Below are positions 109 to 14,313 of a DNA stretch of 14,313 bases, piece after piece; positions within the stretch are counted from its first letter, which is position 1, and every line of letters begins with the position of its first letter. The notes below the pieces were generated by a model. The model was not told the DNA's origin. It ran no database searches and was given only the letters and a program-made list of their open reading frames with translations. This DNA is from an archaeon. GTDB taxonomy: Archaea; Iainarchaeota; Iainarchaeia; Iainarchaeales; CSSED10-239. The translations under genes and the position numbers were made by a program. The stretch spans positions 1-14,313 of the forward strand of contig DAOOON010000005.1 in the NCBI GenBank assembly GCA_035387745.1, in the 5' to 3' direction.

Positions 109-576
109 ATGGTATTATACAAATATTGTTCAAGATGTTATTCTTTAAATATTTCAAGAGACCCAAATTCTAATAATCAGAAATGTATGCAATGCGGTAA
201 TATTGGGATTATGCCTCAAGATAGTATTGATAAGATTAATGTTATGAAAAAATCAAAAGATGGGCAAAGATATGCAGCAGCATCTCAAAGTGCAAGACCT
301 TTAAGAACTGGTAGTCCAGGTAATGATTGTGAGGTTATTAGAAAGAAGGACGACCCTTATAATGACGATATTGACGAAATCGAAGTTCCAAAATCTAAAG
401 ATAATTTTGAAGACGATGAAGAACCAGAAGACAATTTAGAATCTAGGCAATCAAATATTATGAAAAGATCATCTCAGCAGCCAACGCCTGAGAGACACGG
501 GCTTTCTCCAAAAAGCAATCTTTCAGCAAAAGAAAGATTAAAGGAAAAGGGCGGGAAAGACTGGGATTTAGTTTAA
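109..576 (+). CDS. Hypothetical zinc-ribbon protein with an acidic low-complexity C-terminal part
   Basis: ATG at 109 with AGGTGA at 99-104; 155 aa. The N-terminus carries CxxC-x15-CxxC (CSRC...CMQC), a four-Cys zinc-ribbon signature. The remaining ~110 aa are D/E/K/S/P-rich and look disordered. No family recognised. Confidence 0.6.
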   Translation: MVLYKYCSRCYSLNISRDPNSNNQKCMQCGNIGIMPQDSIDKINVMKKSKDGQRYAAASQSARPLRTGSPGNDCEVIRKKDDPYNDDIDEIEVPKSKDNFEDDEEPEDNLESRQSNIMKRSSQQPTPERHGLSPKSNLSAKERLKEKGGKDWDLV

Positions 577-2074: not shown

Positions 2075-4297
2075 ATGCCTGATAAGTATAAAAAATTCAA
2101 GGTCTCAACAGAGAATCCTGGCGAAATTTATAGTTCTATATCAGTGGATTCTAGAGATTTTTCTAAACCTTCAGACAAGCTTACAAAAAGAACATCTGAT
2201 AAATATGTTACTTTATGTAAAAAAATATACCAAAAATTTCCAAGCCTTGGGGTAAATGGGAAATATAACGAAGAATACCAAAAAGCAATTGATTTTCTTG
2301 ACTGGGACTTAACTGCAGAAGAATATACTGCAACCACTAAACTTGTTTTGTTTGGAGGGCTATTTATTACATTGTTTATTTCAGGATTATCTTATGCTTT
2401 TCTATATACTATCCTGTCAGAAGCCTTTGGTAATTCTATGATGGCTTTATTTTTGATATTTGGACTACCAGCAGTTATTTTTATTTTTGTTTTTCTTTCA
2501 TTTCAGAAATATCCATTAAAGAAAGTTGCTGATGAGAAGATAAAAGCACTAACTTTTGTTCCTGAAATTTTAGGTTATATGATAATGTCTATGAAGTTAG
2601 TGCCTAATCTAGAAAAAGCAATAGAATTTGCTTCAGAACATGGACATGGAAAGATTGCTGAGGATCTTAAAAAATTACTTTGGGAAGTAAAGGTCGGAAT
2701 AAAAAACAGTGTTGCCGAAGGATTAGATGATTTAGCTTATCGCTGGGGAGATATTTCTATAGAATTAAAGAAAGGATTAATGAAGATTAGAGCATCAGTT
2801 ATTGAATCTTCAGAAAGCAAGAGATATCAACTTCTTGATCAGACAATGTCTGAAACTCTAGAGTCTGTAAAAGGCAAATTAGAAGATTATGCAAGAACTT
2901 TAAATCAGCCAGCAACAATTATGTTTTATCTTGGAATATTATTGCCTTTATTATTGATTATTGTTTTACCTGTTGGCTCTGCATTTTCTGGTTCTGCTCT
3001 TGCTCAACCAATTTATTTAATTTTAATTTATAATGTAATTATACCATTAGCTTGTTTTTTCTATGCTCAAGGGGTTATTAAAAAAAGGCCACCAACCTAC
3101 AATCCACCAAACATACCTTATGATTTTCCAGGGCTGCCAAAAAAGAATCATTTAAGAGTTAAGAATGCTCAAATTAATGTTTTTATAATAATTGCAATAC
3201 TTCTTGTAAGTTGTGCAGTTATTGGTTTTACGCTACAAAACGCCTATGGTGTGACAAGAGAAAAGATTTTAGAAAGAGAACAGGGCACGACTACACCAAA
3301 TTGGGATTGTACAAGAGAAGAAAGACAACAACAGCTTCTAGATCCTGCCTTTATATGTGCTGATGAAAGAAATTTTTGGCAAGATCCTAAAAATTCTATA
3401 ACTCCTTATTATCTAATATTTTTTATATTGTTTGCAGTTGCTGCTTCCATTTCTTTGTGGGCATATGCCACAAGTGTCTATAAAAGAAAAATACAACTAG
3501 CAACTGAAAATCAAGAAAAAGAATTTAAAGATGCTCTTTATATTATTGCAAGTAGACTTGGAGAAAACAAGCCAATAGAAGATGCTTTTGAGCATACCAG
3601 AAGATTTTTACCTAAGTCTACAGTTGCAAAGGATATTTTTGGTAAAACTGTAGATAATATTAGAGTCTTAGGTCTAACTCTTCAGTCAGCAGTTTTTGAT
3701 AGAAATTATGGTGCTTTAAAGAACAATCCATCAAGAATAATAACAAGTGCCATGCAATTGGTTGTTGATTCTGTGCAGATGGGAGTTAATGTTGCTGCAA
3801 AAACTTTAATTTCATATTCTATGCAGCTAAGAAATACAGACGAGATCAATCGTTTGCTTTCTATTCTGATTGCCGAAATTACAGGAACACTAAATAGTAT
3901 GGCTAAGTTTATTGGCCCAATTATCCTTGGTGTAACAACAACTCTTCATAAGGTGGTTATTTCTACTCTAGCATCAGTTGCAAGTTCTGGGGCAATACAG
4001 GACATGACTCAATCTCTAGAAGGAATAAATACTGCAGAACTTGGAATGGATTTAACGTCTGTATCTTCTTTTGGTACAGCAATCAATGTTGAGGTTATTG
4101 GTAAACTTGCAAGTGCAACTTCTTTTACAATTATTGTTGCGATTTATTTGATTGAGATTGTTCTAATAATGACTTATTTTACAACAATGATTGAGCAAGA
4201 AAATATGACATTAGTAAAATATAGGATTTCACAAACTCTTCCTGTTGCTGTAATTTTGTTTATAATTACAGTGATATTAGCAAACATGGTATTATGA
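2075..4297 (+). CDS. FlaJ/TadC/PilC-like polytopic platform protein of a type IV pilus-like system (two T2SSF-like domains)
   Basis: 740 aa counted from ATG 2075 (MPDKYKK...). The track ORF starts at 2015, but its first 20 codons read through AT-rich promoter-like sequence (ctttataaatatatttt). About 9 predicted TM helices. Two helical cytoplasmic segments each follow a basic stretch and precede TM helices: roughly 2537-2974 (KALTFVPEILGYMIMSMKLVPNLEKAIEFASEHGHGKIAEDL...GLDDLAYRW) and roughly 3512-3964 (KEFKDALYIIASRLGENKPIEDAFEHTRRFLP...). This repeats the GspF/T2SSF domain pattern. The stop overlaps the next gene start (ATGA, 4294-4297). Confidence 0.7.
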   Translation: MPDKYKKFKVSTENPGEIYSSISVDSRDFSKPSDKLTKRTSDKYVTLCKKIYQKFPSLGVNGKYNEEYQKAIDFLDWDLTAEEYTATTKLVLFGGLFITLFISGLSYAFLYTILSEAFGNSMMALFLIFGLPAVIFIFVFLSFQKYPLKKVADEKIKALTFVPEILGYMIMSMKLVPNLEKAIEFASEHGHGKIAEDLKKLLWEVKVGIKNSVAEGLDDLAYRWGDISIELKKGLMKIRASVIESSESKRYQLLDQTMSETLESVKGKLEDYARTLNQPATIMFYLGILLPLLLIIVLPVGSAFSGSALAQPIYLILIYNVIIPLACFFYAQGVIKKRPPTYNPPNIPYDFPGLPKKNHLRVKNAQINVFIIIAILLVSCAVIGFTLQNAYGVTREKILEREQGTTTPNWDCTREERQQQLLDPAFICADERNFWQDPKNSITPYYLIFFILFAVAASISLWAYATSVYKRKIQLATENQEKEFKDALYIIASRLGENKPIEDAFEHTRRFLPKSTVAKDIFGKTVDNIRVLGLTLQSAVFDRNYGALKNNPSRIITSAMQLVVDSVQMGVNVAAKTLISYSMQLRNTDEINRLLSILIAEITGTLNSMAKFIGPIILGVTTTLHKVVISTLASVASSGAIQDMTQSLEGINTAELGMDLTSVSSFGTAINVEVIGKLASATSFTIIVAIYLIEIVLIMTYFTTMIEQENMTLVKYRISQTLPVAVILFIITVILANMVL

Positions 4298-4836
4298 ATT
4301 TTAAATTAAGTAAAAAAGGAGATGATTCAGCTTCTGAAGCCTATAGGCTACTTATTGGATTTATTCTTGGTGCAGCTATTCTTGTTATTATTATGAATAT
4401 GATTAACAGTACACAAAACCAATCAATATTAATAAGTAATCAGAAACTAAAAGAAGGGCTAGTCTCTGCAGTAAAGAGTACAGGAACAAGTGCAAAAACT
4501 CCTTTTGTTATTGAGGATTTAATGCTTAAAGGAAGTATCTCTAAAACTACAATTACAAATTATACAGGTCTTCCAGAAGAATGTATGGCTTTTGTTGCTG
4601 GTCCAAGGCTTTTTTCCGAAAATGACTTTAATATTATAAGAATAAAACCGAGATATTTGAAAATGGATGTTTGGGCATATTGTGATTTTATGCCCCCAGG
4701 AACGACACAGCTACCAGATGGATTAGATACAAACACGCAGGGGCAGCTTACACCAGATCCTGACGATTGTCCGACATACTGTGTATTTTTCTTTAATGTT
4801 AAACCAGATAATGGGCTTTATACTACAACCTCTTAA
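4294..4836 (+). CDS. Pilin-like protein with an atypical class III signal peptide
   Basis: 180 aa, translationally coupled to the platform gene. The N-terminus MNFKLSKKG|DDSASEAYRLLIGFILGAAILVIIMNMI has basic residues, then G, then an S-x-E-xxx-L-like motif, then a ~20 aa hydrophobic helix. The mature part has 4 Cys and an NYT sequon. The globular domain was not recognised. Confidence 0.6.
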   Translation: MNFKLSKKGDDSASEAYRLLIGFILGAAILVIIMNMINSTQNQSILISNQKLKEGLVSAVKSTGTSAKTPFVIEDLMLKGSISKTTITNYTGLPEECMAFVAGPRLFSENDFNIIRIKPRYLKMDVWAYCDFMPPGTTQLPDGLDTNTQGQLTPDPDDCPTYCVFFFNVKPDNGLYTTTS

Positions 4837-4903
4837 AATTAATATTTATAAACAATACCACACTATAATATTTTAATTAAATACAGAAAATGTGAAAAAC
4901 CAT

Positions 4904-5398
4904 ATGAACATCTTTACTAAAATTTTATTTATTCTTTTAGCAATTGTAATACTTATACTTGGCTTTATTGTTGGAACCTTTATCTTAACTTTTATATTTG
5001 TATTATTAATCTTAATGACTTTATTGTTTGTGATTATTTGGTTATTTAATAATCTCGTAAGCCTATTTAAAAGTAGCATAGCTAAACTTATCTTTAAGTC
5101 TGTATTCTCTATGGTCGCTACTTATGGTTTAATTACAATATTGTGGTTATTTACTGGTAAGTTCTTTTTACAGATGGATAAAACAATAGCACTTAGTGTT
5201 ATTTGGGTTATTACGGTTTTAATCTTTGGGGTATTGTGGTATTTATTACACATAAGAAAGCATTCAAAGAAGCACCAATATCTTTGGGATGACTATAAGA
5301 GCACTCCAGATAAACTAGATAGTTGGGATGTTCTTTTAATGCTTGTATTGCCATCAATATTAGTTTATATATTTAATTTTGCTCATGCGATAATTTGA
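4904..5398 (+). CDS. Small polytopic membrane protein (about 5 TM), unknown function
   Basis: The track ORF begins at GTG 4892. ATG 4904 (MNIFTKILF...) lies 8 nt after GTGA and is the more likely start. The protein is almost entirely hydrophobic helices with one basic loop (HIRKHSKKHQ). No GxGD or other catalytic motif was seen. Confidence 0.55.
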   Translation: MNIFTKILFILLAIVILILGFIVGTFILTFIFVLLILMTLLFVIIWLFNNLVSLFKSSIAKLIFKSVFSMVATYGLITILWLFTGKFFLQMDKTIALSVIWVITVLIFGVLWYLLHIRKHSKKHQYLWDDYKSTPDKLDSWDVLLMLVLPSILVYIFNFAHAII

Positions 5399-5399
5399 G

Positions 5400-5422
5400 T
5401 TTAGGTTAAAAAACAACCTAAA
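5400..5422 (+). terminator. Hairpin immediately after the 5398 stop (candidate terminator or RNA-stability element)
   Basis: tttaggtt (5400-5407) pairs perfectly with aacctaaa (5415-5422) around a 7-nt loop. A T5 run follows at about 5446-5450. The stem is AT-rich and weak. Confidence 0.3.
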
Positions 5423-5516
5423 ATAAAGATTTACAATCAAGCTAGTTTTTGGTTTATTATTAACTTTAATTTTATTATTAATATAATTATAATTCAATAA
5501 ACCTTGCAATATCAAT

Positions 5517-5531
5517 AGCTTTTTAAAAGCT
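5517..5531. promoter_or_regulatory. Palindrome AGCTTTT-T-AAAAGCT in the long intergenic region upstream of 5600 (candidate operator)
   Basis: 7-bp arms around one central base, centred ~76 nt upstream of ATG 5600. A related string (aagctttaaaaag, 6395-6407) sits ~83 nt upstream of the paralog start at 6484. This could be chance in AT-rich DNA. Confidence 0.25.
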
Positions 5532-5599
5532 TATATCTTCTATTTCTTTTATTTAATCTTAGTACTAAATACTATTTTAAATAAAATTAGTGAAAATAT

Positions 5600-6385
5600 A
5601 TGAAAAACACAAAAAAAGAAGATCAAGAATACCTTGATTCAATGTTAGAAAAGCACAACATATCTACAAAATACGATAATGAATATTATAGAAAGTTAGA
5701 TAATACAATTTTACAATGGTGTCCATTTGTATTAATATTATTTATTATTCTTTCTATTTTATGGTCTTCTATAGTCGGCAGTAATAAACAAATAATTAGT
5801 TTTTTTATATTTACTGTAATATTTATTTTTGCAGTACTTTATATAATTTTTTCTTTTTTATTTTGGATTGTGGAGTTGTTATCTAAAAAAACTAAAAATT
5901 ATAAGTTTAATTTAATAGTAAAATTATCAATTTCAATTATTTTAGCAATATTAATTACATATACTGTATCTACCCCAATTTGTGCTGGTTGTGGAGGGAG
6001 TACTCCAACAATAGCAACGACACAATTATTAAAATCTTTAATTGATAATCCAGGAGCAGAAAGTTGTACATATCCTGTTACATTTACTATATCAAAATCC
6101 ACACTTTCAGCAGAAAGCATAACAAGAGATACGGGGTTAGAGCCTGAGCAAGTTTATTTTGCCAATCCTGAAGACATAGTAAATTTTGATGCAATTGATT
6201 CTCAATTACTAAAATATACTGCCACATCAAGCAAAAAAGTAGCAATTTGTGCTATTTGTTCGCAAGATGGCAAAACCGGATTAGAGCAAGCACTTCAAGA
6301 AAACGGCATAAGCAACACAACAATAAATTCAATAATAGAAGGAGAAACCATTTGTGCAGTTTATCCAAGAAAATCAGCAAATTAA
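5600..6385 (+). CDS. Membrane-tethered paralog of the 6484-7008 pilin (three N-terminal TM helices plus a shared Cys-containing globular domain)
   Basis: 261 aa; ATG at 5600 with GTGA at 5590-5593. Residues ~137-261 align with residues ~45-174 of the next ORF (LIDNPGAESCTYPVTFTISKSTLSAESIT vs QINNPGAESCTDPVTFTRSKSTLSAEGIT; ...GETICAVYPRK vs ...GETVCVIYPRK). All four Cys are conserved. The N-terminal 95 aa (a cytoplasmic segment plus 2 TM helices) have no counterpart in the paralog. Confidence 0.65.
   Translation: MKNTKKEDQEYLDSMLEKHNISTKYDNEYYRKLDNTILQWCPFVLILFIILSILWSSIVGSNKQIISFFIFTVIFIFAVLYIIFSFLFWIVELLSKKTKNYKFNLIVKLSISIILAILITYTVSTPICAGCGGSTPTIATTQLLKSLIDNPGAESCTYPVTFTISKSTLSAESITRDTGLEPEQVYFANPEDIVNFDAIDSQLLKYTATSSKKVAICAICSQDGKTGLEQALQENGISNTTINSIIEGETICAVYPRKSAN
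6045..6120 (+). repeat. Dispersed near-identical 76-nt block, copy 1 (inside the 5600-6385 CDS)
   Basis: Hand alignment with 6653-6728 gives 69 of 76 identical positions, including most synonymous sites. Flanking homologous coding sequence is far more diverged. Confidence 0.85.
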
Positions 6386-6483
6386 ATATATAAGAAGCTT
6401 TAAAAAGATTTTGTTAATATTATTTCATTAATATATTTATATTAAATAGAGTAAATAAAAAATAAAAAAGGTGAAAACAAATT

Positions 6484-7008
6484 ATGTTAAAATTAACAAA
6501 GAAAGGACAAGCCTCATCAACATTTCAATTGTTGATTGCCGCAGTTGTTGCTCTTGCAATTTTAGGTGTTTTATTAAATATACTAGGGGTTCTTCCAGGA
6601 CTAAATAAAGACCCTACAAAGACTACAAAAACACTTTTAACTGATCAAATAAATAATCCAGGAGCAGAAAGCTGTACAGACCCAGTTACATTTACTAGAT
6701 CAAAATCAACACTTTCAGCAGAAGGCATTACCGTTAATACCGGGATAGAAATGACACAAGTATATTTTGATAATCCAGAGACAATATCCAATTTTGATCC
6801 AAAGGACAGTATATTAAGATATGGAGCGAGCGGCTCAAAAAAAGTAATGATGTGTATTGTTTGTTCTTCAGATAAAAGCACATTAGATCAGGCAATTGAG
6901 GCAAATCAAAAGACAGACCCAGCAGATAATTTTAAAACTCAACCCACAGAATTATCTTCTGGGGAAACAGTATGTGTAATATATCCAAGAAAGACATCTG
7001 CTTCATAA
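6484..7008 (+). CDS. Type IV pilin-like protein with a class III signal peptide
   Basis: 174 aa; AGGTGA at 6469-6474, 9 nt upstream of the ATG. The N-terminus MLKLTKKG|QASSTFQLLIAAVVALAILGVLLNILGV fits basic-G|Q plus a hydrophobic helix (the Q-x-S motif of PF04021-type signals). The mature domain has 4 Cys. Confidence 0.75.
   Translation: MLKLTKKGQASSTFQLLIAAVVALAILGVLLNILGVLPGLNKDPTKTTKTLLTDQINNPGAESCTDPVTFTRSKSTLSAEGITVNTGIEMTQVYFDNPETISNFDPKDSILRYGASGSKKVMMCIVCSSDKSTLDQAIEANQKTDPADNFKTQPTELSSGETVCVIYPRKTSAS
6653..6728 (+). repeat. Dispersed near-identical 76-nt block, copy 2 (inside the 6484-7008 CDS)
   Basis: See copy 1. The shared string starts ataatccaggagcagaaag and ends cactttcagcagaa[a/g]gcat. 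Confidence 0.85.
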
Positions 7009-7033
7009 GATAAAATATAAGAAAAGGTAAGAT

Positions 7034-7273
7034 ATGAACTTAAAACAAGAGCTTAAGAGATTATGGCTTGATAAAAGAGCGCAAGGGGATGGCGCTTCCA
7101 CCCTCTATATGCTTATTATCATAGCTATAGTTGCTCTTGTTCTAATTGCAGTCATTAAACCTATGTTTAATAGCAGTATGAAAACTTCAATGAATGTCGC
7201 AGACTTGCCTAACCAAGGTACAACTGCGACCCCAACAGTCAATTCTACAGCACCAACTACTGGCTCAAGCTGA
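7034..7273 (+). CDS. Short pilin-like protein (Flp/EpdE-like size) with a T/P/S-rich tail
   Basis: 79 aa; AGGT at 7025-7028. MNLKQELKRLWLDKRA|QGDGASTLYMLIIIAIVALVLIAVIKP, followed by only ~35 aa ending NQGTTATPTVNSTAPTTGSS. Two N-glycosylation sequons (NSS, NST). No Cys. Confidence 0.65.
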   Translation: MNLKQELKRLWLDKRAQGDGASTLYMLIIIAIVALVLIAVIKPMFNSSMKTSMNVADLPNQGTTATPTVNSTAPTTGSS

Positions 7274-7292
7274 TTTCTTTAAAACAACAAGC

Positions 7293-7303
7293 TTTTTAAA
7301 TTC
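7293..7303 (+). promoter_or_regulatory. TATA-box-like element (ctttttaaatt) about 27 nt upstream of ATG 7326, possible internal promoter giving a leaderless mRNA
   Basis: The 52-nt gap 7274-7325 has no Shine-Dalgarno-like motif, unlike neighbouring genes. The TTTTTAAA element is preceded by an A-rich BRE-like stretch (aaaacaacaa) at the archaeal -26/-27 spacing. TATA-like strings are common in this AT-rich DNA. Confidence 0.3.
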
Positions 7304-7325
7304 TTTTTCTATATTTATTTCTAAG

Positions 7326-7928
7326 ATGAACAAAAACAAAAATATATTTTTGATAAAAAGTAGTAAGGCTCAAGCAAGCGCGCCTTTTGAAGTTCTTGTA
7401 GCTGTTATTCTTATGGGCTTTGTTATTATGGCAGGTACCTGGGCTTTAATCAACCTAAACCAAAGCGTTTGTGTAGGTAATAAACGACAAAGCATGAGCG
7501 AAATGAAAGGTATAATCGAAGATATAATAATGGGTTCTGATTTAGCAGTTAAAAATGTGAAATTTGATATACAGCCTTGTTTTAATGAAAAATTTGAAGC
7601 AATAACCTTAAAGACCTATACTAACGAAACACTCTGTACTTCTTATTGTAATGCAGGAGAAACCTGTACCTTAATGGAATATGTTTATGATGATGATAAA
7701 ACTACGAAACGACCTATTGCTCCTATGTGTTTAAATCTACCAACTGCAATTAATTATGCAAGTTCTGCTGAAGGTTGTGAAGAAAATTCTGAGGAATGGC
7801 TAGCTTTGAATTTTGGTGGCAGTAATCCAAATTCTATATTAACAAGCGGCAGCTATAAGATTTTCATGAGAAGTCAGACAGGAACAGATTCTATAAGAGA
7901 ATTGTGTTTTTTAAAAAAAATTGATTAA
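7326..7928 (+). CDS. Pilin-like protein with a class III signal peptide (Cys-rich globular domain)
   Basis: 200 aa from ATG 7326. The track ORF starts at 7194 but overlaps the previous gene out of frame. The N-terminus MNKNKNIFLIKSSKA|QASAPFEVLVAVILMGFVIMAGTWALI fits Q-x-S-x-x-x-E-x-L. 8 Cys and NQS/NET sequons in the mature part. Confidence 0.7.
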   Translation: MNKNKNIFLIKSSKAQASAPFEVLVAVILMGFVIMAGTWALINLNQSVCVGNKRQSMSEMKGIIEDIIMGSDLAVKNVKFDIQPCFNEKFEAITLKTYTNETLCTSYCNAGETCTLMEYVYDDDKTTKRPIAPMCLNLPTAINYASSAEGCEENSEEWLALNFGGSNPNSILTSGSYKIFMRSQTGTDSIRELCFLKKID

Positions 7929-7930
7929 AA

Positions 7931-8587
7931 ATGATTGAGTTTTCTTTATCAAAATTAAATTTATTAATTTTTGTAACAGCAATTGCTGCAATAGTAATAT
8001 TCTTTATAGCAACATTTAATTCTAGTATGAAAACAAGACAAAGCTATGAATTGGTTTACAAAGTGGGAAAAGAAATAAAGACCGGGATAGAAAACGAAAG
8101 CTATTGTACTGTAAAATTTATAACAATACCAAAAACCATACAAACAAATTCTGGAAATTCTGATACCTTTAATATGAGATATAAATTAAATGTTTCTGCA
8201 TATTCTGTAGGCGATGATTCAAAAAGGTTAGTTCTTACTGTAATGGATAGAAAAGAAAAACCAAAAATCTATGCTGCTTACGATATTGACTATAATGGTT
8301 CAGTTGCGTTATATGCATCAGAAAGCTGTACAAGTTTTCCAAACTGTACAATTACCAAGTCAGAAAATTTTTCTGTAGATTTTGATCCATCTAAAAGAGA
8401 TTCGATAGACACACAAATACTTTTTGCAAAGATTATTTCAAATGGAAACCCCATAATTTTCTTAATTCCGTGTCTTGAAAAAAAAGGAATATATACTTGC
8501 AGAGAATTTATAAATACGAAAGATTTAAAGACGTTGATTCCTTGTTTAAATATAGTTAGTGATTTAGTAAATTATACTGATAATTAG
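7931..8587 (+). CDS. N-terminally anchored secreted protein, possible minor pilin or assembly factor
   Basis: 218 aa; starts 2 nt after the previous stop. The N-terminus MIEFSLSKLNLLIFVTAIAAIVIFFIATFNSSMKT is a hydrophobic helix without a clear [KR]G|Q site. 6 Cys and 7 N-x-S/T sequons (NSS, NES, NVS, NGS, NCT, NFS, NYT) suggest an extracellular glycoprotein. Confidence 0.55.
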   Translation: MIEFSLSKLNLLIFVTAIAAIVIFFIATFNSSMKTRQSYELVYKVGKEIKTGIENESYCTVKFITIPKTIQTNSGNSDTFNMRYKLNVSAYSVGDDSKRLVLTVMDRKEKPKIYAAYDIDYNGSVALYASESCTSFPNCTITKSENFSVDFDPSKRDSIDTQILFAKIISNGNPIIFLIPCLEKKGIYTCREFINTKDLKTLIPCLNIVSDLVNYTDN

Positions 8588-8595
8588 GATTAAAC

Positions 8596-9108
8596 ATGAA
8601 TAACAAAAAAGGATATATTGGCGCAATTGGAGACGATCTCCCAAGCTTAATACCAATATTTGTAGGTTTAACTATCTTTTTTGCAGTTTTTTTAAATACC
8701 TATAATGTTTATAGAAATAACACAGATCTTTATTCCTTAAGAAATGATGCAATTAATATTTCAGGAATAATAAAAGAAAATCCAATTATTTCAGACCAAA
8801 ATCAATTTATAAAATCTTGTAACAGAGTTAAAACAAAATACAATTGGAATGCGTTTATTATACCGTTAGATCTTAATAGTGAAAATTATAACGGCTTAAC
8901 TATTGATGACTTAGAAGTAGAAAACATTATGAAACATTGGGCAGAAACCGAATCTCAACCTAGAAAATTAATATGTGATTCTGAGGGATTAGGGGCTTTA
9001 AGAACTGCATTACAAACAAAAGATGTAACTGTCTATAAATATCCAATAACTGTTCAACAACAATTTTATGTAGAACCTGCATGGATTTACATTGTTGTGT
9101 GGAAATGA
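8596..9108 (+). CDS. Pilin-like protein with an atypical N-terminus
   Basis: 170 aa; AGGA at 8586-8589. MNNKKG|YIGAIGDDLPSLIPIFVGLTIFFAVFL has basic-G followed by a hydrophobic helix. 2 Cys, NNT and NIS sequons. The domain was not recognised. Confidence 0.55.
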   Translation: MNNKKGYIGAIGDDLPSLIPIFVGLTIFFAVFLNTYNVYRNNTDLYSLRNDAINISGIIKENPIISDQNQFIKSCNRVKTKYNWNAFIIPLDLNSENYNGLTIDDLEVENIMKHWAETESQPRKLICDSEGLGALRTALQTKDVTVYKYPITVQQQFYVEPAWIYIVVWK

Positions 9109-9114
9109 TATAAA

Positions 9115-9918
9115 ATGCAATTAATAAAAATAAAAACGAGAAAAGGTCAAGCAGCAATAACAGATGCTTTATTTTTCTTAATTATAATTGTCGCCCTGTC
9201 TGTATTAATGTTTAGATATTCTTCTACTTATGGCAACAGAATAGAACAAGCAAGTTCTGATTTATATTATAAAGAATATACAAATTCGGTTCTAAAAACC
9301 ATATTTTATGTATCTGCACCTTTAGATTTTGATTTAAATCTTGAAAAAACCAAACAAAACGATTATTTAATGGCTCTTGTAAAACAAGATTATTATGCAC
9401 AGGGAAAACTTGGTTTTTCTGATATGAATGATCTAAAAACAGATAATTATTTAGACATTGCAAAATACAATTTATTTCATACAATTAAAGCCACTATGCG
9501 TCCATTAGAATCACAAGATTATTTGTTCTATATTTTTAATAATGAAGATTCTAATTTTTTATATTTTACAATTAAGAACACACACTTTGAAATATCAGAA
9601 GCTAATCCAAATAGTGGAGTAGATGCGGTTAGAGGAGTTACAAGATACATACTAACAGAAAATCCATATCATTATTATCTTTGTGATCCTGAAAGTTATG
9701 AAGATGTAAGAGCTGTTGTTTCTAGGTCTCCAAAGATTTTTTCCTCTTCTATACCTTTGTCGTTTACATATAATTATAGTACTTATGCACAACTTGGGAT
9801 AAAAGAAGATATTGTTACTTCCACTTTTGCAATGTGGCCAGCAACAGTCGATATAAATAGCGATTTGCTTATTCCATTAAATTGTAAAGAAGTTGATCCC
9901 CTATCTAGCAATCCATAA
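9115..9918 (+). CDS. Pilin-like protein with a class III signal peptide (largest of the set)
   Basis: 267 aa. MQLIKIKTRKG|QAAITDALFFLIIIVALSVLMF is a clean basic-G|Q plus hydrophobic helix. 2 Cys in the mature part. Last gene of the same-strand run. Confidence 0.7.
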   Translation: MQLIKIKTRKGQAAITDALFFLIIIVALSVLMFRYSSTYGNRIEQASSDLYYKEYTNSVLKTIFYVSAPLDFDLNLEKTKQNDYLMALVKQDYYAQGKLGFSDMNDLKTDNYLDIAKYNLFHTIKATMRPLESQDYLFYIFNNEDSNFLYFTIKNTHFEISEANPNSGVDAVRGVTRYILTENPYHYYLCDPESYEDVRAVVSRSPKIFSSSIPLSFTYNYSTYAQLGIKEDIVTSTFAMWPATVDINSDLLIPLNCKEVDPLSSNP

Positions 9919-9939: not shown

Positions 9940-10674
9940 TTAAAACTTCAAACCTAATTCGTCATCAGAATCTGCGTCTTCTGCATCATCATCTCCAAAA
10001 TCTAATTTTAATTCTTCTTTTTTAGGTTTTGATGATTCTTTATTCTTTACTATTTTATCTTTAATATTATCTTCTGATTTTTTTGTTGTTTCTTTACTTT
10101 TCTTTTCTTTTGCGTTTTGAATTGCTTTTTCAACTATTTTTTCTTTTTTTGCCTTTTCTCTTATATCTTCTTTTTTATTTTCTTCTACAACATCATCTAT
10201 TACTTTCTCTAGCTCTTCTCTGTCATTTAAGAAATCATAATTTTCTTTGGTTTTAACAGTATTTGTTGAAGTACTGCCAGTTATATTTCTAGAACCCCTA
10301 TAATGTGCGTTGCTTTGAACAACTTGCTTAACACTTTCTTGAGTAACATTAACATCTCTTACTGATAATTGAGAATATATCATTTCTGCGATTTCATCAA
10401 TATCTGGATCAATTCTGTTTTTTAGGTCTATGAGTATTTTATCTATAATTTTTTGCTTTTCTTCAGAATTTAATTTTTTATTTTCTTTTATAGATTTTAA
10501 TGTTTTTTCTGGTATTTCTCTTGTTGATTTTAATTCTGTTTCTTTTTTTTCAGGAACCATTTTTTTTGTATCTTTTTTAGGTTTAGTTATTGGTGTGTCA
10601 CCATAAACCATTTCTCCATTTTCTTCTTTTCTATAAAATCTGCGCTCTCTTCTCTTAATTTTGTTAATATCCAT
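9940..10674 (-). CDS. K/E-rich low-complexity protein with an acidic C-terminal tail (hypothetical)
   Basis: 244 aa from ATG 10674 (MDINKIKRRERRF...). GAGGA (reverse complement of 10681-10685) lies 6 nt upstream. The track start at 10701 has no such motif. Two long K/E-rich stretches flank a short ordinary-composition core (IDEIAEMIYSQLSVRDVNVTQESVKQVV). The protein ends ...FGDDDAEDADSDDELGLKF. Confidence 0.6.
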   Translation of the reverse strand: MDINKIKRRERRFYRKEENGEMVYGDTPITKPKKDTKKMVPEKKETELKSTREIPEKTLKSIKENKKLNSEEKQKIIDKILIDLKNRIDPDIDEIAEMIYSQLSVRDVNVTQESVKQVVQSNAHYRGSRNITGSTSTNTVKTKENYDFLNDREELEKVIDDVVEENKKEDIREKAKKEKIVEKAIQNAKEKKSKETTKKSEDNIKDKIVKNKESSKPKKEELKLDFGDDDAEDADSDDELGLKF

Positions 10675-10773
10675 AATTATTCCTCTTTTTTCTATAAACA
10701 TATAAGTATATAATATTTAAAAACTATTATGCTAATATATATTTAACTAAAATATTATAAAAAGGCATAAATA

Positions 10774-11310
10774 ATGAATGAATTATTATTAAGCACACTA
10801 AATTACATATGGGTTTTTATTAAATTATTACTATTTAGTGCTTTGTTGGCTCTGCCATTTATTGGTTTAACCTATCTTTTCCAGAAAAAATTTAATTGGT
10901 TAAGACTTGATAAAAAGCTAAGCTTTGCAAAGTCTTTGTTTATTATTATTTTTGTTATTTCATATATTGCTTTAATAATAGTTTATTTTGTGCCGGTATT
11001 AGATAAGTTCTCAACATTTACTTTCTTTGAAGGCGTCTTATTTGTATTGATACAAATTGTAAGGTTATTTTTAGTAAATTTATTATTTACTGGAATGTTT
11101 TTTATTATTGCAATGTTTATATCAATGTTATATGATTCCTTTATGGAAAAAAAAGAAAAAAAGAAGAAAACAAAAAAGCAAAAATCAGAAAAATTAGTTT
11201 TTATAGACCTTTGGAAAAGTTTTGCTATGGTTTTGTTTGTTGTTATGTTATTCTTAATAATAATATTCCCATCATTAATTGCAATGATTTTATATTTGAT
11301 ATTTATGTAA
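10774..11310 (+). CDS. Small polytopic membrane protein (4-5 TM) with a poly-Lys cytoplasmic loop
   Basis: 178 aa, ATG at 10774. Hydrophobic helices are interrupted by MEKKEKKKKTKKQKSEK. The stop is 12 nt before the start of the giant ORF, suggesting co-transcription. Confidence 0.6.
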   Translation: MNELLLSTLNYIWVFIKLLLFSALLALPFIGLTYLFQKKFNWLRLDKKLSFAKSLFIIIFVISYIALIIVYFVPVLDKFSTFTFFEGVLFVLIQIVRLFLVNLLFTGMFFIIAMFISMLYDSFMEKKEKKKKTKKQKSEKLVFIDLWKSFAMVLFVVMLFLIIIFPSLIAMILYLIFM

Positions 11311-11322
11311 GGTGTTTTTTAA

Positions 11323-14313
11323 ATGAACGAATCAATTAAAAGAGTTTGGATTTTTTTCTTTTTAATACTTTTCTGCAATAGTGTATTTGCTTATGGATAT
11401 AATCCGGATAACAGCTATTATTTTGCAGAAAAAGAAATAAGTTCTGATGGCGTTGTCTTTGATAGAGGCAATGGCTGTATGACTAAAGAGTTATCAGAAA
11501 AAGAAGTTAATGCTCTTTGGGGAGAAATATTAACAAAGGGATTCTCTGCAGATCTTTTAGATTCAGATCAAGAAGCAAACACTAACAGAGAAAATCTAGA
11601 TAAAAATAATTTGATTGTTGCAGATGCTGATGCTAAATCAGGAGATGTTGGTGCAAAGATGCAAGTTCCCTCTCAACAAATCAACCCTCTTGAAGTTCCA
11701 ATGTTAATAGGTAAAACCTGTTATGGGTCTTATGATTTTGGACTTAATTTAAATGAAACATTAAGAGTTGGCAGATGTGATCTTGATAGTAATACAAGCG
11801 ATTGTTATCTTAGTATGCCTGGGCAATACAGACAAAACAATTTAAGTGCTTCAAATGTTGGAGGATTCTTTAAAGAAGTAAAAGTTGTAGGAAAAGATTT
11901 AATTTCTGGAATTAAAGAAACAGTAATAAAAAATGAAGAAGATGAAATTCCTGGTAAAGAAAATATGGGGCCATTTTCTGATTTATCTTCACGGGAGTTA
12001 AGTAAAATAGAACAGACCATGCTAGCAAACGATGCAAATACAATAAATACAGAAACCTGGGATGCTGTAAGTGATGAAGTTCTAGTAAATAGTTCTTTAA
12101 CTCAAAATTTTGCAGCAACAATGCAAACTACCTGTAGTGGAGAAAATTGTTATATTAACACTTATTCTTTATTTGACAAAATGTTTAATCAATATTTTTC
12201 TGCAGATATGGTTTACAGTTCTGTATCTCCATTTTTATTTAATGGTGCCGCAAGGATATTTAATGTTCCAGGAGTTAAAAATGCAGTCTTAAAACCAATA
12301 AATACTTTAAAAGATAAAGGGCTAATAAAAGACGGCGGTTTTTTAGATACTCTAACTAAAGATCCAGCATTATTTGTTAAAGACCCTTTTGGAAGAATTA
12401 GTCAATCAATAAAAGCAAGCAAATATGCAAACGCTGACGTAGATAGATTCGTAGAATTTAATCTGGCGCACAATGAAATAATGGGAAGAGACATAGCTCA
12501 CTACAATATGAAAGGATTTACAGATAATATGTTTGATTCGGTACAAGATGGTATTGGAGCAACAAGTAAATTTAATAAAGAAATGATTTTAGATGGTACT
12601 AAAAACTTAAGTGCAGCACAAAGACGCGTAGCAACAGATGTAGCTCAGGAATATGCAGATAAACTATATTCTTCTAGCGCATTATTAAAATCAAAACTTG
12701 CAAATCCCATAACTAGTGATGCAATAAACATCTATAAAAAAGGTATTGCAAATGGAGCAAATATAAATGAAATATTAAGCAATTTAACTGAAGAACAATA
12801 TAAAGCATTAGATGATTATGTATATACGGCTACAAAGCTTTCTAAAAGTTTAGAAATTGCAATGGATGGAAAATTTAAATGGAAAGATTCTCTATTTGAC
12901 ACTGCAACAATAAATAATAAAGTTGCAAAAGTATATGATAATGGTGTAGAAAGGGAAATCAAAATTGAAAATTATAAATCATTAGATGGCGGATCAAATG
13001 CTTTGTATAAAAAAGAAATTTTACAAGATGGTTCAGTAAAGATAGATACTAAGGTTTATGGTGATGAATTCAAATTATTTGAATATGATAGAGTAAATCA
13101 AGTCTCTCAAATAAAGGGTGCTGGTAAATCTGTTGTAACAGAAAATATGAAAGTTCCACTTGCTGGTGGGGAAGTTAATAGACAACGACTAAAGGCGGTG
13201 TATAAAGATTTAGACAAGTCTGGAGCAATAAAAATAAATGATGCGGCCGGATTAACACCATTTCAAAAAAACACTACTGCTTTTGTTTCTTTTACAGATT
13301 CGGTTTCTGGACCTCAAACTATATCCATTCATGATTATTTTACTAATTCATACACCCCTTTGCCTGGAACTATAGAACTATATCCAAAAGGCTATAATAC
13401 AATATTAATAGATGATGTAGAAATTTTTGATACAGTGCTGGGAAAAAAAGTAAAAATAAAAGATGCAATTAATCCAAACACCGGAAAACCATATGGCCCA
13501 GGGTATTTTGATTTAGATCCTTTAGAAGTAGCGGCTCCAGTTCTTATTCCTCCGTCTTCCGGAAGTACGGTTGTAAAAAAAATAGACGATACCGCAAATC
13601 GTTTTAGTGACGTCTTAAAAACAATGAGTCATAAAGAATGGGTTTCTGGTAAAGGAAGAGACGCAATTAATCAGTTAATGAGAAATTATAATGGTGGATC
13701 CTATCAAAGGTTTTTAACACAAAATCTATTAGTTTTTGGACTTAATTTTGCATACTGGGAAGTTAAATCTGGTGGTGCAACAATATTTGGAGATACAATT
13801 GGAATGACTAGATGGTCAATGTATCAATTACCTGAAACTTATACTGCTTTAAAAATTAAGCACAAAGAAAACGGAGAGATTTATAAAGACGCATATTTAG
13901 ATTTCTTTGCTAATACTGGTTCAGATCAAGGAGATCTTTTCATGAAATATTTAAATTCTATGTTATTTTGGTCTGTTAATGTAACCTCAAAAGTAGTTGA
14001 AGGTGTAGGTGCCGATTGGTCTACTTCTGTTGTTGATTTCCTAAATGCACGATTACAAGGCCAAATTAGAAGATCAGAAACAGACGATATAGTATTAATT
14101 ACAAATAATATTTCTTCAGGTTGTAACAATCAATTTTGTAATTTTACAATCGGCGCAAACTATATTGATCAAAACACAATGAACGCATCTTTATCTGCTA
14201 TAGAGCTAGAAGAATTAGAAAAAGAAAATAAAGATGCCAAAGAAAATACAGAAGATGCAGATGCCAAAGAAAATACAGAAGATGCAGATGCCAAAGAAAA
14301 TACAGAAGATGCA
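11323..14313 (+). CDS. Giant secreted protein of unknown function, 3' end truncated by the window (at least 997 codons)
   Basis: Not in the supplied ORF track because it has no stop in the window. My codon-by-codon translation from ATG 11323 (AAGGTG at 11309-11314, 8 nt upstream) found no stop through base 14313. The N-terminus MNESIKRVWIFFFLILFCNSVFA|YGYNP is a typical Sec signal peptide. No later TM segment was seen. 8 Cys lie in close pairs around a ~660 aa Cys-free core. The visible end is a DAKENTEDA tandem repeat. Confidence 0.85.
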   Translation, partial: MNESIKRVWIFFFLILFCNSVFAYGYNPDNSYYFAEKEISSDGVVFDRGNGCMTKELSEKEVNALWGEILTKGFSADLLDSDQEANTNRENLDKNNLIVADADAKSGDVGAKMQVPSQQINPLEVPMLIGKTCYGSYDFGLNLNETLRVGRCDLDSNTSDCYLSMPGQYRQNNLSASNVGGFFKEVKVVGKDLISGIKETVIKNEEDEIPGKENMGPFSDLSSRELSKIEQTMLANDANTINTETWDAVSDEVLVNSSLTQNFAATMQTTCSGENCYINTYSLFDKMFNQYFSADMVYSSVSPFLFNGAARIFNVPGVKNAVLKPINTLKDKGLIKDGGFLDTLTKDPALFVKDPFGRISQSIKASKYANADVDRFVEFNLAHNEIMGRDIAHYNMKGFTDNMFDSVQDGIGATSKFNKEMILDGTKNLSAAQRRVATDVAQEYADKLYSSSALLKSKLANPITSDAINIYKKGIANGANINEILSNLTEEQYKALDDYVYTATKLSKSLEIAMDGKFKWKDSLFDTATINNKVAKVYDNGVEREIKIENYKSLDGGSNALYKKEILQDGSVKIDTKVYGDEFKLFEYDRVNQVSQIKGAGKSVVTENMKVPLAGGEVNRQRLKAVYKDLDKSGAIKINDAAGLTPFQKNTTAFVSFTDSVSGPQTISIHDYFTNSYTPLPGTIELYPKGYNTILIDDVEIFDTVLGKKVKIKDAINPNTGKPYGPGYFDLDPLEVAAPVLIPPSSGSTVVKKIDDTANRFSDVLKTMSHKEWVSGKGRDAINQLMRNYNGGSYQRFLTQNLLVFGLNFAYWEVKSGGATIFGDTIGMTRWSMYQLPETYTALKIKHKENGEIYKDAYLDFFANTGSDQGDLFMKYLNSMLFWSVNVTSKVVEGVGADWSTSVVDFLNARLQGQIRRSETDDIVLITNNISSGCNNQFCNFTIGANYIDQNTMNASLSAIELEELEKENKDAKENTEDADAKENTEDADAKENTEDA
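14233..14313 (+). repeat. Perfect 27-bp tandem repeat, at least 3 copies (gatgccaaagaaaatacagaagatgca), in frame and encoding DAKENTEDA
   Basis: Units at 14233-14259, 14260-14286 and 14287-14313 are identical base for base. The array runs off the window edge, so the copy number is unknown. Confidence 0.95.

What the first reader, a model, noticed from the sequence alone, without database searches (positions are those of the whole stretch)
2075..9918. Eight-kb archaeal type IV pilus-like locus: oversized platform protein plus a battery of unrecognisable pilin-like genes, with no ATPase or prepilin peptidase nearby
Ten same-strand genes run from 2075 to 9918. They are joined by a 4-nt overlap (4294-4297) or by gaps of 2-98 nt, apart from one ~200 nt gap. 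The first gene encodes a ~9-TM protein with two T2SSF-like cytoplasmic domains. Six downstream ORFs start with a short basic segment, G or A, then ~20 hydrophobic residues: KKG|DDSASEAYRLLIGF, KKG|QASSTFQLLIAAVV, KRA|QGDGASTLYMLIII, SKA|QASAPFEVLVAVIL, KKG|YIGAIGDDLPSLIPIF, RKG|QAAITDALFFLIII. This is the class III (prepilin-like) signal cut by FlaK/PibD/EppA-type peptidases, and Gln at +1 is the hallmark of EppA substrates in Methanococcus. I cannot place any of the mature domains in a known pilin, archaellin or binding-protein family. Canonical loci put a PilB/FlaI/TadA-type ATPase next to the platform gene. Here the upstream neighbour is a divergent ferredoxin/nfo pair and the downstream genes are pilin-like or small membrane proteins. 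The motor and the peptidase must therefore lie elsewhere or be replaced. Together with the giant secreted protein at 11323, this looks like a dedicated cell-surface appendage or adhesion module.
Basis: partly seen in the sequence, partly recalled or inferred. Interest (0 to 1): 0.75.

Follow-up and report, generated by a model that had tools for sequence, protein, structure and literature searches.

The report
DPANN archaeal type IV pilus operon
This is the platform-and-pilin part of a type IV pilus-like surface machine found across one class of tiny DPANN archaea (Iainarchaeia); its motor ATPase gene sits next door in most relatives but has moved away in this lineage, so the locus is real and poorly characterised but not a new kind of system.

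Summary
Ten same-strand genes lie at 2075-9918 with the stated overlap and gaps. Six have N-termini that fit the class III (prepilin) rule.

The 14.3-kb window is a whole metagenome contig from a low-GC Iainarchaeia (Diapherotrites, DPANN) archaeon. The same gene order recurs in 87 related loci: platform, seven pilin-like genes, a ~178-aa membrane protein, then a giant anchored surface protein. The [KR][GA]Q + hydrophobic helix motif is conserved in each orthologue group.

The 740-aa protein belongs to a 725-810-aa family. Its first cytoplasmic domain matches Pfam T2SSF. That match is below threshold in the window protein and above it in several orthologues. A second T2SSF domain could not be shown.

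In 65 of 67 distant relatives (41-47% identity) a ~760-aa T2SSE ATPase gene lies upstream of the platform gene on the same strand (within 400 nt in 58; gap or overlap of a few nt in the two read). In the window's clade (at least 58% identity, including Ca. Forterrea) it is absent. That clade carries a ~460-aa FlaI/GspE2-like ATPase 2.4 kb away, 23 kb away, or on another contig.

No prepilin peptidase is linked in any locus, which is usual in archaea. The pilin heads match no Pfam or NCBIfam family, and the one modelled matched no solved structure.

Verdict: a divergent, lineage-typical archaeal type IV pilus locus. It is a new variant of a known kind and of moderate interest.

The parts
2075..4297 (+). 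Platform protein (740 aa), a divergent T2SSF/TadC/FlaJ-type polytopic membrane protein with about 8-9 TM helices
   Evidence: Pfam T2SSF at residues 169-299, E=0.02, below cut-off. 24 of 31 family members hit T2SSF and 6 of 8 tested pass the cut-off. 358 homologues of 725-810 aa, some named T2SSF by their sources. AlphaFold pLDDT 77.6, all-helical. Best Foldseek PDB hit is PilC in 3jc8 but weak, E=0.19. In clade B a T2SSE ATPase gene lies upstream on the same strand in 65 of 67 loci.
4294..4836 (+). g2, a prepilin-like protein (180 aa). The leader ends KKG, followed by a hydrophobic helix.
   Evidence: Motif rule. Orthologues in both clades carry [KR]GQ-AFExF(R)LLI. No Pfam or NCBIfam family. 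dN/dS 0.17-0.22.
4904..5398 (+). g3, a small polytopic membrane protein (164 aa; alternative GTG start at 4892). Found only in the window's clade.
   Evidence: Present in clade A loci only. No family hit. dN/dS 0.11-0.15.
5600..6385 (+). g4 (261 aa): a polytopic N-terminal anchor fused to a paralogue of the g5 head domain. It is not a prepilin.
   Evidence: BLASTP against g5: 55% identity over 119 aa, E=1e-39. One to three copies, only in the window's subclade. Fastest evolving gene, dN/dS 0.40.
6484..7008 (+). g5, a prepilin-like protein (174 aa, KKG|QASSTFQLLIAAVVALAIL). Candidate exposed or major subunit.
   Evidence: G8, Q9 and the helix residues are invariant in 55 homologues, as are two Cys, C127 and C164. 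AlphaFold pLDDT 88.1: N-terminal helix plus a beta-rich head. No significant PDB fold match, best E=0.58. Duplicated in several loci. dN/dS 0.31-0.34.
7034..7273 (+). g6, a very short prepilin-like protein (79 aa; mature form about 60 aa, with a Thr/Ser/Pro-rich tail). Candidate Flp- or EpdE-sized pilin.
   Evidence: Conserved ...[KR]A|Q(S/G)EWSS(V/L)YML...IKPMF in 16 representatives of 53-75 aa, out of 1.84 billion proteins. 49-79 aa in all loci. Pfam Flp_Fap only at E=0.097. dN/dS 0.11-0.15.
7326..7928 (+). g7, a prepilin-like protein (200 aa, SKA|QASAPFEVLVAVILMGFV)
   Evidence: Motif conserved as [KR][GA]Q(E)(S/E)APFE(L/V)L(I/V)A in both clades. Gene called at 200 aa on identical contigs. 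No family hit.
7931..8587 (+). g8, a pilin-like protein without a basic leader (218 aa, MIEFSLSKLNLLIFV...). Seventh conserved member of the set.
   Evidence: Orthologues in both clades begin M(L/I)(G/E)F(T/I)LSK(L/I)NLLI. Clade B has 'MLG|F'. Conserved position between g7 and g9.
8596..9108 (+). g9, a prepilin-like protein (170 aa, KKG|YIGAIGDDLPSLIPIF)
   Evidence: KG[FY][IL]G[AP]IGDDLPSLIP is nearly invariant in both clades. No family hit.
9115..9918 (+). g10, a prepilin-like protein (267 aa, RKG|QAAITDALFFLIII). Largest of the set.
   Evidence: [KR][GA]QAA(I/V)TDA(L/M)(F/Y)FL conserved in both clades. Last gene of the pilin block in all loci.
9940..10701 (-). g11, a Lys/Glu-rich 253-aa protein on the opposite strand. 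Conserved in the window's clade only, role unknown.
   Evidence: Orthologues in clade A loci only. No Pfam family.
10774..11310 (+). g12, a conserved ~178-aa polytopic membrane protein that always precedes the giant gene
   Evidence: Orthologues of 163-184 aa in both clades, at the same position. No Pfam hit. Not related to the EpsH-like archaeosortase of clade B (hhalign probability 0.8%). dN/dS 0.11-0.12.
11323..14313 (+). 5' part (997 of 1755 codons) of a giant surface protein, cut by the contig end
   Evidence: Full length read on L091: Sec-type signal, KENTEDADA x6 repeat, C-terminal TM helix plus a basic tail. No Pfam family. Orthologue downstream of g12 in both clades.

Best explanation
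The window carries the membrane-platform gene and the subunit genes of a type IV filament (type IV pilus-like) machine. This machine is a conserved, vertically inherited operon of Iainarchaeia (Diapherotrites, DPANN).

Inferred mechanism:
1. The pilin-like proteins g2, g5, g6, g7, g9 and g10 insert into the membrane through their N-terminal hydrophobic helix.
2. An unlinked A24-type prepilin peptidase removes the short basic leader after the conserved Gly/Ala, mostly leaving Gln at +1.
3. The 740-aa T2SSF-type platform, driven by a cytoplasmic hexameric T2SSE ATPase, lifts the processed subunits out of the membrane into a helical fibre.
4. The small g6 and/or the fast-evolving g5 form the bulk of the fibre.
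5. The other five (g2, g7, g8, g9, g10), each with its own invariant N-terminal signature and a fixed gene order, act as minor pilins that prime or cap the fibre.
6. The co-conserved g12 membrane protein and the C-terminally anchored giant protein are surface partners, possibly an adhesin or cell-envelope component.

In most of the class the motor is a ~760-aa ATPase encoded upstream of the platform gene. In the window's clade that gene is gone from the operon. The likely motor there is a ~460-aa FlaI/GspE2-type ATPase encoded elsewhere in the genome.

Shown here: the synteny, the motif conservation, the T2SSF/T2SSE family relations, purifying selection, and the presence of the short ATPase in related genomes.

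Inferred only: leader cleavage, fibre formation, which subunit is the major one, and the pairing of the short ATPase with this platform.
For: Synteny:
- It is conserved in 87 loci.
- A T2SSE ATPase gene lies upstream of the platform on the same strand in 65 of 67 clade B loci. It ends within 400 nt of the platform gene in 58 of them. In the two loci read directly (L004, L006) the gap is 6 nt.

Family relations:
- T2SSF Pfam hits occur across the platform family.
- The clade B ATPase matches T2SSE at 5.6e-18 and the short ATPase at 7.7e-30 to 2.5e-32.
- Both ATPases are closest to A. fulgidus GspE2 (2oap), FlaI and CpaF among solved structures.

Pilin signals:
- Class III-type N-termini are conserved within each orthologue group across both clades.
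- They are far above chance in the window.
- The g5 model has an N-terminal helix plus a beta-rich head.

Selection:
- All genes are under purifying selection in the ATPase-less clade, with dN/dS 0.10-0.40.

Short ATPase in the window's clade:
- It lies 2.4 kb upstream on the opposite strand in L015 and L016.
- It lies 23.4 kb from the platform on one contig, SRR14932604_5019.
- It lies in the same MAG as a 79%-identical platform, judged by neighbouring accession series.

Precedent:
- M. maripaludis has +1 Gln pilins, a 74-aa major pilin, and pilus genes scattered over several loci (PMC3875500).
- DPANN pilus loci with unrecognisable pilins have been noted (PMC6393860).
Against: - The window's own platform protein scores below the Pfam T2SSF threshold.
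- A profile of the family finds nothing in PDB by sequence.
- The Foldseek match to PilC is not significant.
- The second T2SSF domain is not detectable.
- No pilin-like protein hits any pilin, archaellin or class III signal family in Pfam or NCBIfam.
- The confident g5 model matches no solved pilin.
- No ATPase and no A24 peptidase was found for the window's own organism. The contig is only 14.3 kb, and the genome could not be scanned.
- The +5 Glu typical of Methanococcus and bacterial pilins is absent.
- No filament has been observed.
Confidence: 0.8

Rival explanations
1. The same machinery builds a short pseudopilus, working like a type II secretion or competence (Com) piston rather than a long adhesive pilus. 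It would serve DNA or nutrient uptake, or export or display of the neighbouring giant protein, in an organism that depends on others for nucleotides.
For: A fixed set of seven distinct pilin-like proteins in fixed order resembles the major-plus-four-minor pseudopilin sets of T2SS and Com systems. There is strict synteny with a giant anchored surface protein and the g12 membrane protein. Ca. Forterrea is predicted to be a symbiont centred on nucleotide metabolism (PMC5905446).
Against: No secretin-, ComEC- or ComEA-like gene was seen in the loci. The giant protein has its own Sec-type signal. All characterised archaeal systems of this type make pili or archaella (own knowledge; PMC4858521).
Confidence: 0.15
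2. The locus is a decaying remnant. After the adjacent ATPase gene was lost, the platform and pilin genes no longer function.
For: The dedicated ~760-aa ATPase gene is absent from 18 of 18 loci in the window's clade, where ferredoxin and nfo genes lie upstream instead.
Against: All ten genes plus g12 are intact in every clade A locus. They evolve under purifying selection, dN/dS 0.10-0.40 at dS 0.5-1.6. Gene order is kept over platform divergence down to 58% identity. A T2SSE ATPase is present in related genomes of the clade.
Confidence: 0.03
3. This is not a pilus system. The N-termini are ordinary Sec signals or uncleaved membrane anchors of unrelated surface proteins, and the 740-aa protein is an unrelated polytopic membrane protein.
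For: The T2SSF hit in the window protein is sub-threshold. There are no pilin family hits. There is no structural match for g5 and no significant one for the platform.
Against: Orthologues pass the T2SSF threshold. In 65 of 67 clade B loci a T2SSE ATPase gene lies upstream of them on the same strand. The N-termini have a basic leader ending in an invariant G/A, then an invariant Q and a 20-25-residue helix with no AxA-type c-region. These features are conserved residue by residue across the class.
Confidence: 0.02

Closest known systems
Methanococcus maripaludis Epd type IV-like pili (EpdA-E/MMP1685, EppA peptidase, EpdJ/K platform proteins, EpdL ATPase)
   Same: Short leaders end in Gly and have Gln at +1. 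There is a very small pilin (74 aa in Methanococcus, 49-79 aa for g6), mid-sized pilins of 130-300 aa, and several essential minor pilins. The pilus genes are not all at one locus (PMC3875500).
   Different: There is no hit to the DUF361/class III signal Pfam family, and +5 Glu is not conserved. Here the platform is with the pilins and the ATPase is apart; in Methanococcus the ATPase and platform genes both lie outside the pilin operon (PMC3875500). There is one 740-aa platform gene rather than two essential copies. No EppA gene is linked. The head domains are unrelated at sequence level.
Euryarchaeal/DPANN 'ATPase-TadC-pilins' loci of Makarova, Koonin and Albers 2016, and the DPANN dark-matter pilus islands of Makarova, Wolf and Koonin 2019
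   Same: A core of secretion ATPase plus TadC-like platform plus pilins, often with an S-layer-like or large surface protein nearby. In DPANN the pilins are recognisable only by their signal peptides (PMC4858521, PMC6393860).
   Different: This particular operon has seven one-to-one conserved pilin-like genes, g12 and a giant protein. I did not find it described. The platform is 725-810 aa and the clade B ATPase about 760 aa, with a ~370-residue N-terminal extension. In one subclade the operon ATPase has been lost.
Bacterial Tad/Flp pili (CpaF/TadA, TadB/TadC, Flp)
   Same: The ATPases are about as close to CpaF as to FlaI. There is a very short pilin of Flp size. The platform belongs to the T2SSF family.
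   Different: There is no Flp motif (G|xxxxEY), and Pfam Flp_Fap reaches only E=0.097. There is a single large platform rather than TadB plus TadC. No secretin, TadZ or TadG was seen. The host is an archaeon.
Archaellum (ArlB, ArlI/FlaI, ArlJ/FlaJ, ArlH, ArlF/G)
   Same: A FlaI-like ATPase family, a FlaJ-like polytopic platform, and class III signals.
   Different: There is no archaellin domain. No FlaH, FlaF/G or FlaC/D/E/X genes were seen in any of the loci.

Membership tests
Type IV filament (type IV pilus-like) systems | T2SSF/PilC/TadC/FlaJ-family polytopic platform protein | tested here: met
   The window protein is sub-threshold (E=0.02, 15.3 bits against a 25.2-bit cut-off). 24 of 31 family members hit T2SSF, and 6 of 8 tested orthologues pass the cut-off. 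Only one of the usual two T2SSF domains is detected.
Type IV filament (type IV pilus-like) systems | T2SSE-family hexameric ATPase | tested here: inconclusive
   Absent from the window and from the flanks read on identical contigs: 10 kb upstream of the platform gene and 4.7 kb beyond the giant gene. Upstream on the same strand in 65 of 67 clade B loci. A ~460-aa T2SSE ATPase is present in genomes of the window's clade. The window organism's own genome could not be scanned.
Type IV filament (type IV pilus-like) systems | Subunits with class III signal peptides: a short basic leader, Gly/Ala at -1, and a ~20-residue hydrophobic helix at the mature N-terminus | tested here: met
   Six ORFs fit the rule, against 0-1 in shuffles. 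The motif is conserved in the orthologue groups. Cleavage itself cannot be tested here.
Type IV filament (type IV pilus-like) systems | A24 prepilin peptidase (PibD/FlaK/EppA type, GxGD) | not testable with these tools
   None is in the window. A GxGD scan of polytopic ORFs in 87 loci found one nine-TM candidate (L028:472-1437) and one four-TM chance match. The candidate belongs to a membrane protein family that gave no Peptidase_A24 hit in the two members scanned. A whole-genome scan was not possible.
Methanococcus EppA-substrate pilins (Pfam DUF361/Class_IIIsignal, PF04021) | Match to the family model; +1 Gln and +5 Glu | tested here: not met
   No PF04021 hit at E<=1. +1 Gln is conserved in g5, g6, g7 and g10 and in most g2 orthologues (not the window's own g2). 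+5 Glu is not conserved.
Flp/Tad pilins (PF04964) | Match to the Flp_Fap model and the Flp motif G|xxxxEY | tested here: not met
   g6 scores E=0.097, 12.9 bits against a 32.2-bit cut-off. The motif is absent.
Archaellum | Archaellin domain subunits plus ArlH and ArlF/G accessory genes | tested here: not met
   No such Pfam or NCBIfam hits for any window protein. None among the precomputed Pfam hits of neighbouring genes.
Known pilin/archaellin folds (solved structures) | Structural similarity of the mature head domain to a solved pilin | tested here: not met
   The g5 model (pLDDT 88.1) gave no Foldseek PDB match with E<=0.001; the best was 0.58 and unrelated. The other six proteins were not modelled.

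The most novel reading that the evidence does not exclude
The Iainarchaeia operon may be a distinct, so far undescribed branch of archaeal type IV filament systems. It has a fixed set of seven pilin-like subunits whose head folds have no solved counterpart, coupled to a dedicated membrane protein and a giant anchored surface protein. In the Forterrea-like subclade, which contains this window, the dedicated ~760-aa operon ATPase was lost. An unlinked ~460-aa FlaI/GspE2-type ATPase would then have taken over as motor. That would be a natural motor swap on an otherwise unchanged platform and pilin set.
Probability: 0.4. Interest if true: 0.5.

Novelty: new variant of a known kind. Interest (0 to 1): 0.35.

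Why it matters
DPANN archaea are thought to live attached to, or dependent on, other cells. Their surface machines are mostly genomic dark matter.

This analysis turns ten hypothetical genes into a defined, class-wide pilus operon with clear orthologue groups and conserved processing motifs. It also gives a candidate small pilin and a candidate exposed pilin. These are concrete targets for cryo-ET, metaproteomics and heterologous expression.

The clade-specific loss of the operon ATPase, with a different T2SSE ATPase retained elsewhere, is a natural test of how specific platform-motor pairing is in type IV filament systems.

It does not overturn anything. The architecture, the scattered genes and the unrecognisable pilins all have precedents in archaea.

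Tried and rejected
1. NCBIfam scan of all ten proteins: nothing meaningful.
2. Profile of the platform family against PDB sequences: 0 hits even at E<=10.
3. Foldseek of the full-length platform model against PDB. The top hit was PilC of 3jc8, but at E=0.19 and TM-score 0.14-0.26, so I did not use it as proof.
4. hhalign of the platform's N-terminal half against its C-terminal half, to show an internal duplication: no similarity, with a shallow alignment (Neff 1.8). The 'two T2SSF domains' claim stays unproven.
5. Foldseek of the confident g5 model against PDB: no pilin or archaellin match.
6. Test of g12 as a divergent archaeosortase, using hhalign against the EpsH-like genes of clade B: rejected.
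7. Search for a linked prepilin peptidase by GxGD motif in 87 loci. The single nine-TM candidate (L028) belongs to a family of polytopic proteins upstream of the ATPase in 13 clade B loci. The two members scanned gave no Peptidase_A24 hit.
8. Attempts to find the window organism's own ATPase:
   - The short-ATPase cluster nearest to it (P0125/P0317/P0323) lies in other samples or MAGs, so the link is shown only for relatives.
   - L092 (663-kb contig) does not overlap the Forterrea platform locus L019 at nucleotide level.
9. phmmer of g6 against 1.84 billion representatives: only 16 small relatives and no bridge to known pilin families.
10. Rfam scan of the window: no RNA family.
11. Bindosome-like reading (class III signals on substrate-binding proteins): rejected. 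No SBP domains or ABC transporter genes are present.

Full report
**What the window is**

The 14,313-bp window is a complete metagenome contig, ENA ERZ761564 NODE_4995_length_14313. It is about 30% G+C. Identical copies of the locus lie on longer contigs. These include JGI 3300010355 Ga0116242_10000888 (62.7 kb) and ENA ERZ27257431 k141_1138677 (27.9 kb).

Neighbouring genes include archaeal-type SAM synthetase. The names of homologous records are Candidatus Iainarchaeum, Diapherotrites and Ca. Forterrea. Together these place the contig in the DPANN class Iainarchaeia.

**Observation check**

The gaps are 55-67, 201, 98, 25, 52, 2, 8 and 6 nt.

I applied a FlaFind-like rule for class III signals. 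It finds the six named ORFs at their annotated starts, against 0-1 ORFs per shuffle in 20 shuffles of the window.

No ATPase or peptidase gene is present in any of these stretches:
- the window itself;
- the 10 kb upstream on the identical 62.7-kb contig;
- the 4.7 kb beyond the giant gene.

**The platform protein**

Pfam T2SSF matches residues 169-299 of the window protein only at E=0.02, below the gathering score. The protein belongs to a family of at least 358 proteins of 725-810 aa.
- 24 of 31 sampled members hit T2SSF at E<=0.01.
- Six of eight tested orthologues pass the curated cut-off, always with the same first domain.

The AlphaFold model is all-helical, with pLDDT 77.6. Hydropathy gives eight strong hydrophobic segments.

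Several independent tests were weak or negative:
- A family profile finds nothing among PDB sequences.
- The best Foldseek hit is PilC of the 3jc8 pilus machine model, but at a non-significant E=0.19.
- A second T2SSF domain could not be shown by Pfam or by hhalign of the two halves.

The helix pattern of residues 470-640 resembles that of residues 146-305 in the model. That resemblance remains an inference.

**Comparative genomics**

One scan of GTDB species representatives returned 80 loci. With the metagenome loci this makes 87.

I used tblastn and jackhmmer with the window proteins. They show one conserved gene order:

[T2SSE ATPase] - platform - g2 - (g3) - g5 (one or two copies; g4 paralogues) - g6 - g7 - g8 - g9 - g10 - one or two opposite-strand genes - g12 - giant protein.

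Two clades are clear.

| Feature | Clade B | Clade A (includes the window) |
|---|---|---|
| Platform identity to the window | 41-47% | at least 58% |
| Non-redundant loci | 67 | 18 |
| ~760-aa T2SSE ATPase upstream, same strand | 65 of 67; the other two lack upstream sequence | none |
| Upstream neighbours of the platform | the ATPase gene | ferredoxin and nfo |

- In clade B the last ATPase hit ends within 400 nt of the platform gene in 58 loci.
- In L004 and L006 the gap is 6 nt.
- Clade A includes the complete genome of Ca. Forterrea multitransposorum.
- Ten clade A loci have at least 7 kb of upstream sequence, and none shows this ATPase.

**Where the motor is in clade A**

A different T2SSE ATPase of about 460 aa occurs in clade A genomes.
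- In L015 and L016 it lies about 2.4 kb upstream on the opposite strand. The L015 copy is 469 aa, has Walker A GGTSSGKTT, and matches Pfam T2SSE at 7.7e-30.
- Its orthologues are 455-466 aa and 48-76% identical.
- Elsewhere these orthologues are orphan genes with no platform or pilin gene beside them.
- On Logan contig SRR14932604_5019 the short ATPase is at 8.9-10.3 kb. A clade A platform gene lies at 33.7-35.9 kb, 23.4 kb away on the same strand. That platform is 83% identical to Forterrea's.
- In another MAG, a platform 79% identical to the window's and the short ATPase carry neighbouring accession series: MFA5746244 and MFA5746014, and MFA7708515 and MFA7708721.

Both ATPase types are closest to A. 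fulgidus GspE2 (2oap), FlaI and CpaF among solved structures.

So 'the motor lies elsewhere' is supported for the clade. It could not be shown for the window's own organism.

The genes of the ATPase-less clade are intact and under purifying selection, with dN/dS 0.10-0.40. This argues against a dead locus.

**The pilin-like set**

N-termini of orthologues from both clades align residue by residue.

| Gene | Conserved N-terminal motif |
|---|---|
| g2 | [KR]GQ-AFExFRLLI |
| g5 | KGQ-AFSTFQLLIAAVVALA |
| g6 | [KR]AQ-(S/G)EWSSVYML...IKPMF |
| g7 | [KR][GA]Q-(E)SAPFELL |
| g9 | KG-[FY][IL]G[AP]IGDDLPSLIP |
| g10 | [KR][GA]Q-AAITDALFFL |

- In 55 g5 homologues G8, Q9 and most helix positions are invariant, as are two cysteines.
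- g8 is a seventh conserved member. It has the hydrophobic N-terminus but no basic leader: 'MLG|FTLSK' in clade B and 'MIEFSLSK' in clade A.
- g4 is not a prepilin. It is a paralogue of the g5 head on a polytopic anchor, 55% identical over 119 aa. It occurs only in the window's subclade, in one to three copies.
- g4 and g5 evolve fastest, with dN/dS 0.31-0.40. This fits surface exposure.
- g6 is 49-79 aa everywhere. It has only 16 representative relatives among 1.84 billion proteins.

None of the proteins hits a pilin, archaellin, Flp or class III signal family in Pfam or NCBIfam. The confident g5 model has pLDDT 88.1 and shows an N-terminal helix, a second helix and a beta-rich head. It has no significant match among solved structures.

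**Peptidase and surface partners**

No A24-type peptidase is linked in any of the 87 loci by a GxGD scan. The one nine-TM candidate belongs to a membrane protein family without A24 signal. Unlinked prepilin peptidases are common in archaea (PMC4858521).

g12 is a conserved ~178-aa polytopic protein with no family. It is not related to the EpsH-like archaeosortase found upstream in clade B.

The giant protein is 1755 aa. It has four notable features:
- a Sec-type signal;
- a KENTEDADA x6 repeat;
- a C-terminal TM helix with a basic tail;
- no Pfam domain.

Its orthologues follow g12 in both clades.

**Comparison with known systems**

The closest functional analogue is the Methanococcus maripaludis Epd pilus (PMC3875500). 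It shares these features:
- leaders ending in Gly with +1 Gln;
- a 74-aa major pilin;
- several minor pilins of 130-300 aa;
- genes at four or more loci.

The family models (DUF361, Flp) are not matched, and +5 Glu is absent.

Makarova et al. described the general ATPase-TadC-pilin plan (PMC4858521). They also noted that DPANN pilus islands contain pilins recognisable only by their signal peptides (PMC6393860).

I found no paper describing this particular operon. The Forterrea genome paper mentions only a 'secretion-related ATPase'.

**Verdict**

The finding is a real, conserved type IV pilus-like operon of Iainarchaeia. It has divergent parts, and a lineage-specific rearrangement removed the ATPase gene from the operon. 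It is a new variant of a known kind. It is useful as annotation and as an experimental target, but not surprising to a specialist.

Noticed in passing
window 14232-14313: The contig ends inside a perfect 27-nt tandem repeat (3.0 copies). The repeat encodes the KENTEDADA x6 repeat of the 1755-aa giant protein, so it probably caused the assembly break.
   Followed up: yes
L084:4534-9933 and L051:6130-9987: In some clade B genomes the operon's T2SSE ATPase gene is 1286-1800 codons long. It carries one or two inteins with LAGLIDADG homing endonucleases, inserted in the ATPase domain. Several other loci show similarly stretched ATPase hits.
   Followed up: yes
L004:5922-6470 (-) and about 37 other clade B loci; L004:1-5287 (-): An EpsH-like archaeosortase gene (PF09721, 3e-8) lies upstream of the pilus ATPase in about 37 clade B loci. 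In the loci whose gene tables were read (L004-L007) a second giant surface protein (2700-2800 aa, weak SpaA/CarboxypepD_reg signals) lies nearby. Both are absent from the window's clade.
   Followed up: partly
window 5600-6385; L009:5896-7762; L017:13369-15002: g4 is a locally expanding paralogue family, with one to three copies. The g5 pilin head domain is mounted on a polytopic N-terminal anchor instead of a class III signal. It is the fastest-evolving gene in the locus, with dN/dS 0.40.
   Followed up: partly
L004:6520-7530, L028:472-1437 and 11 other clade B loci: A family of 294-350-aa polytopic membrane proteins lies directly upstream of the ATPase gene in 13 clade B loci. It has only a weak GPDPase_memb resemblance, and its role is unknown.
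   Followed up: partly
L001:6419-7057 (-), about 3 kb upstream of the window's platform gene on the 62.7-kb contig: A 212-aa protein with a GGDEF (diguanylate cyclase) domain. This domain is uncommon in archaea (own knowledge). It lies near a pilus locus.
   Followed up: no
L096:8140-8667, L094:11428-11964, L098-L101: A conserved 175-178-aa gene with no Pfam family always follows the orphan short T2SSE ATPase, which is preceded by an M48 peptidase gene. It may be an accessory factor of that ATPase.
   Followed up: no
window 109-576 and 602-904: Two small ORFs with no family hit: a 155-aa protein with an N-terminal CxxC...CxxC zinc-ribbon-like motif, and a 100-aa membrane-anchored Cys-rich protein. 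On the 62.7-kb contig a single different 157-aa gene occupies this position.
   Followed up: no
window 9940-10701 (-): A 253-aa Lys/Glu-rich protein with an acidic C-terminus sits on the opposite strand between the pilin block and g12. It is conserved only in the window's clade. Clade B has a zinc-ribbon protein and a membrane protein there instead.
   Followed up: no
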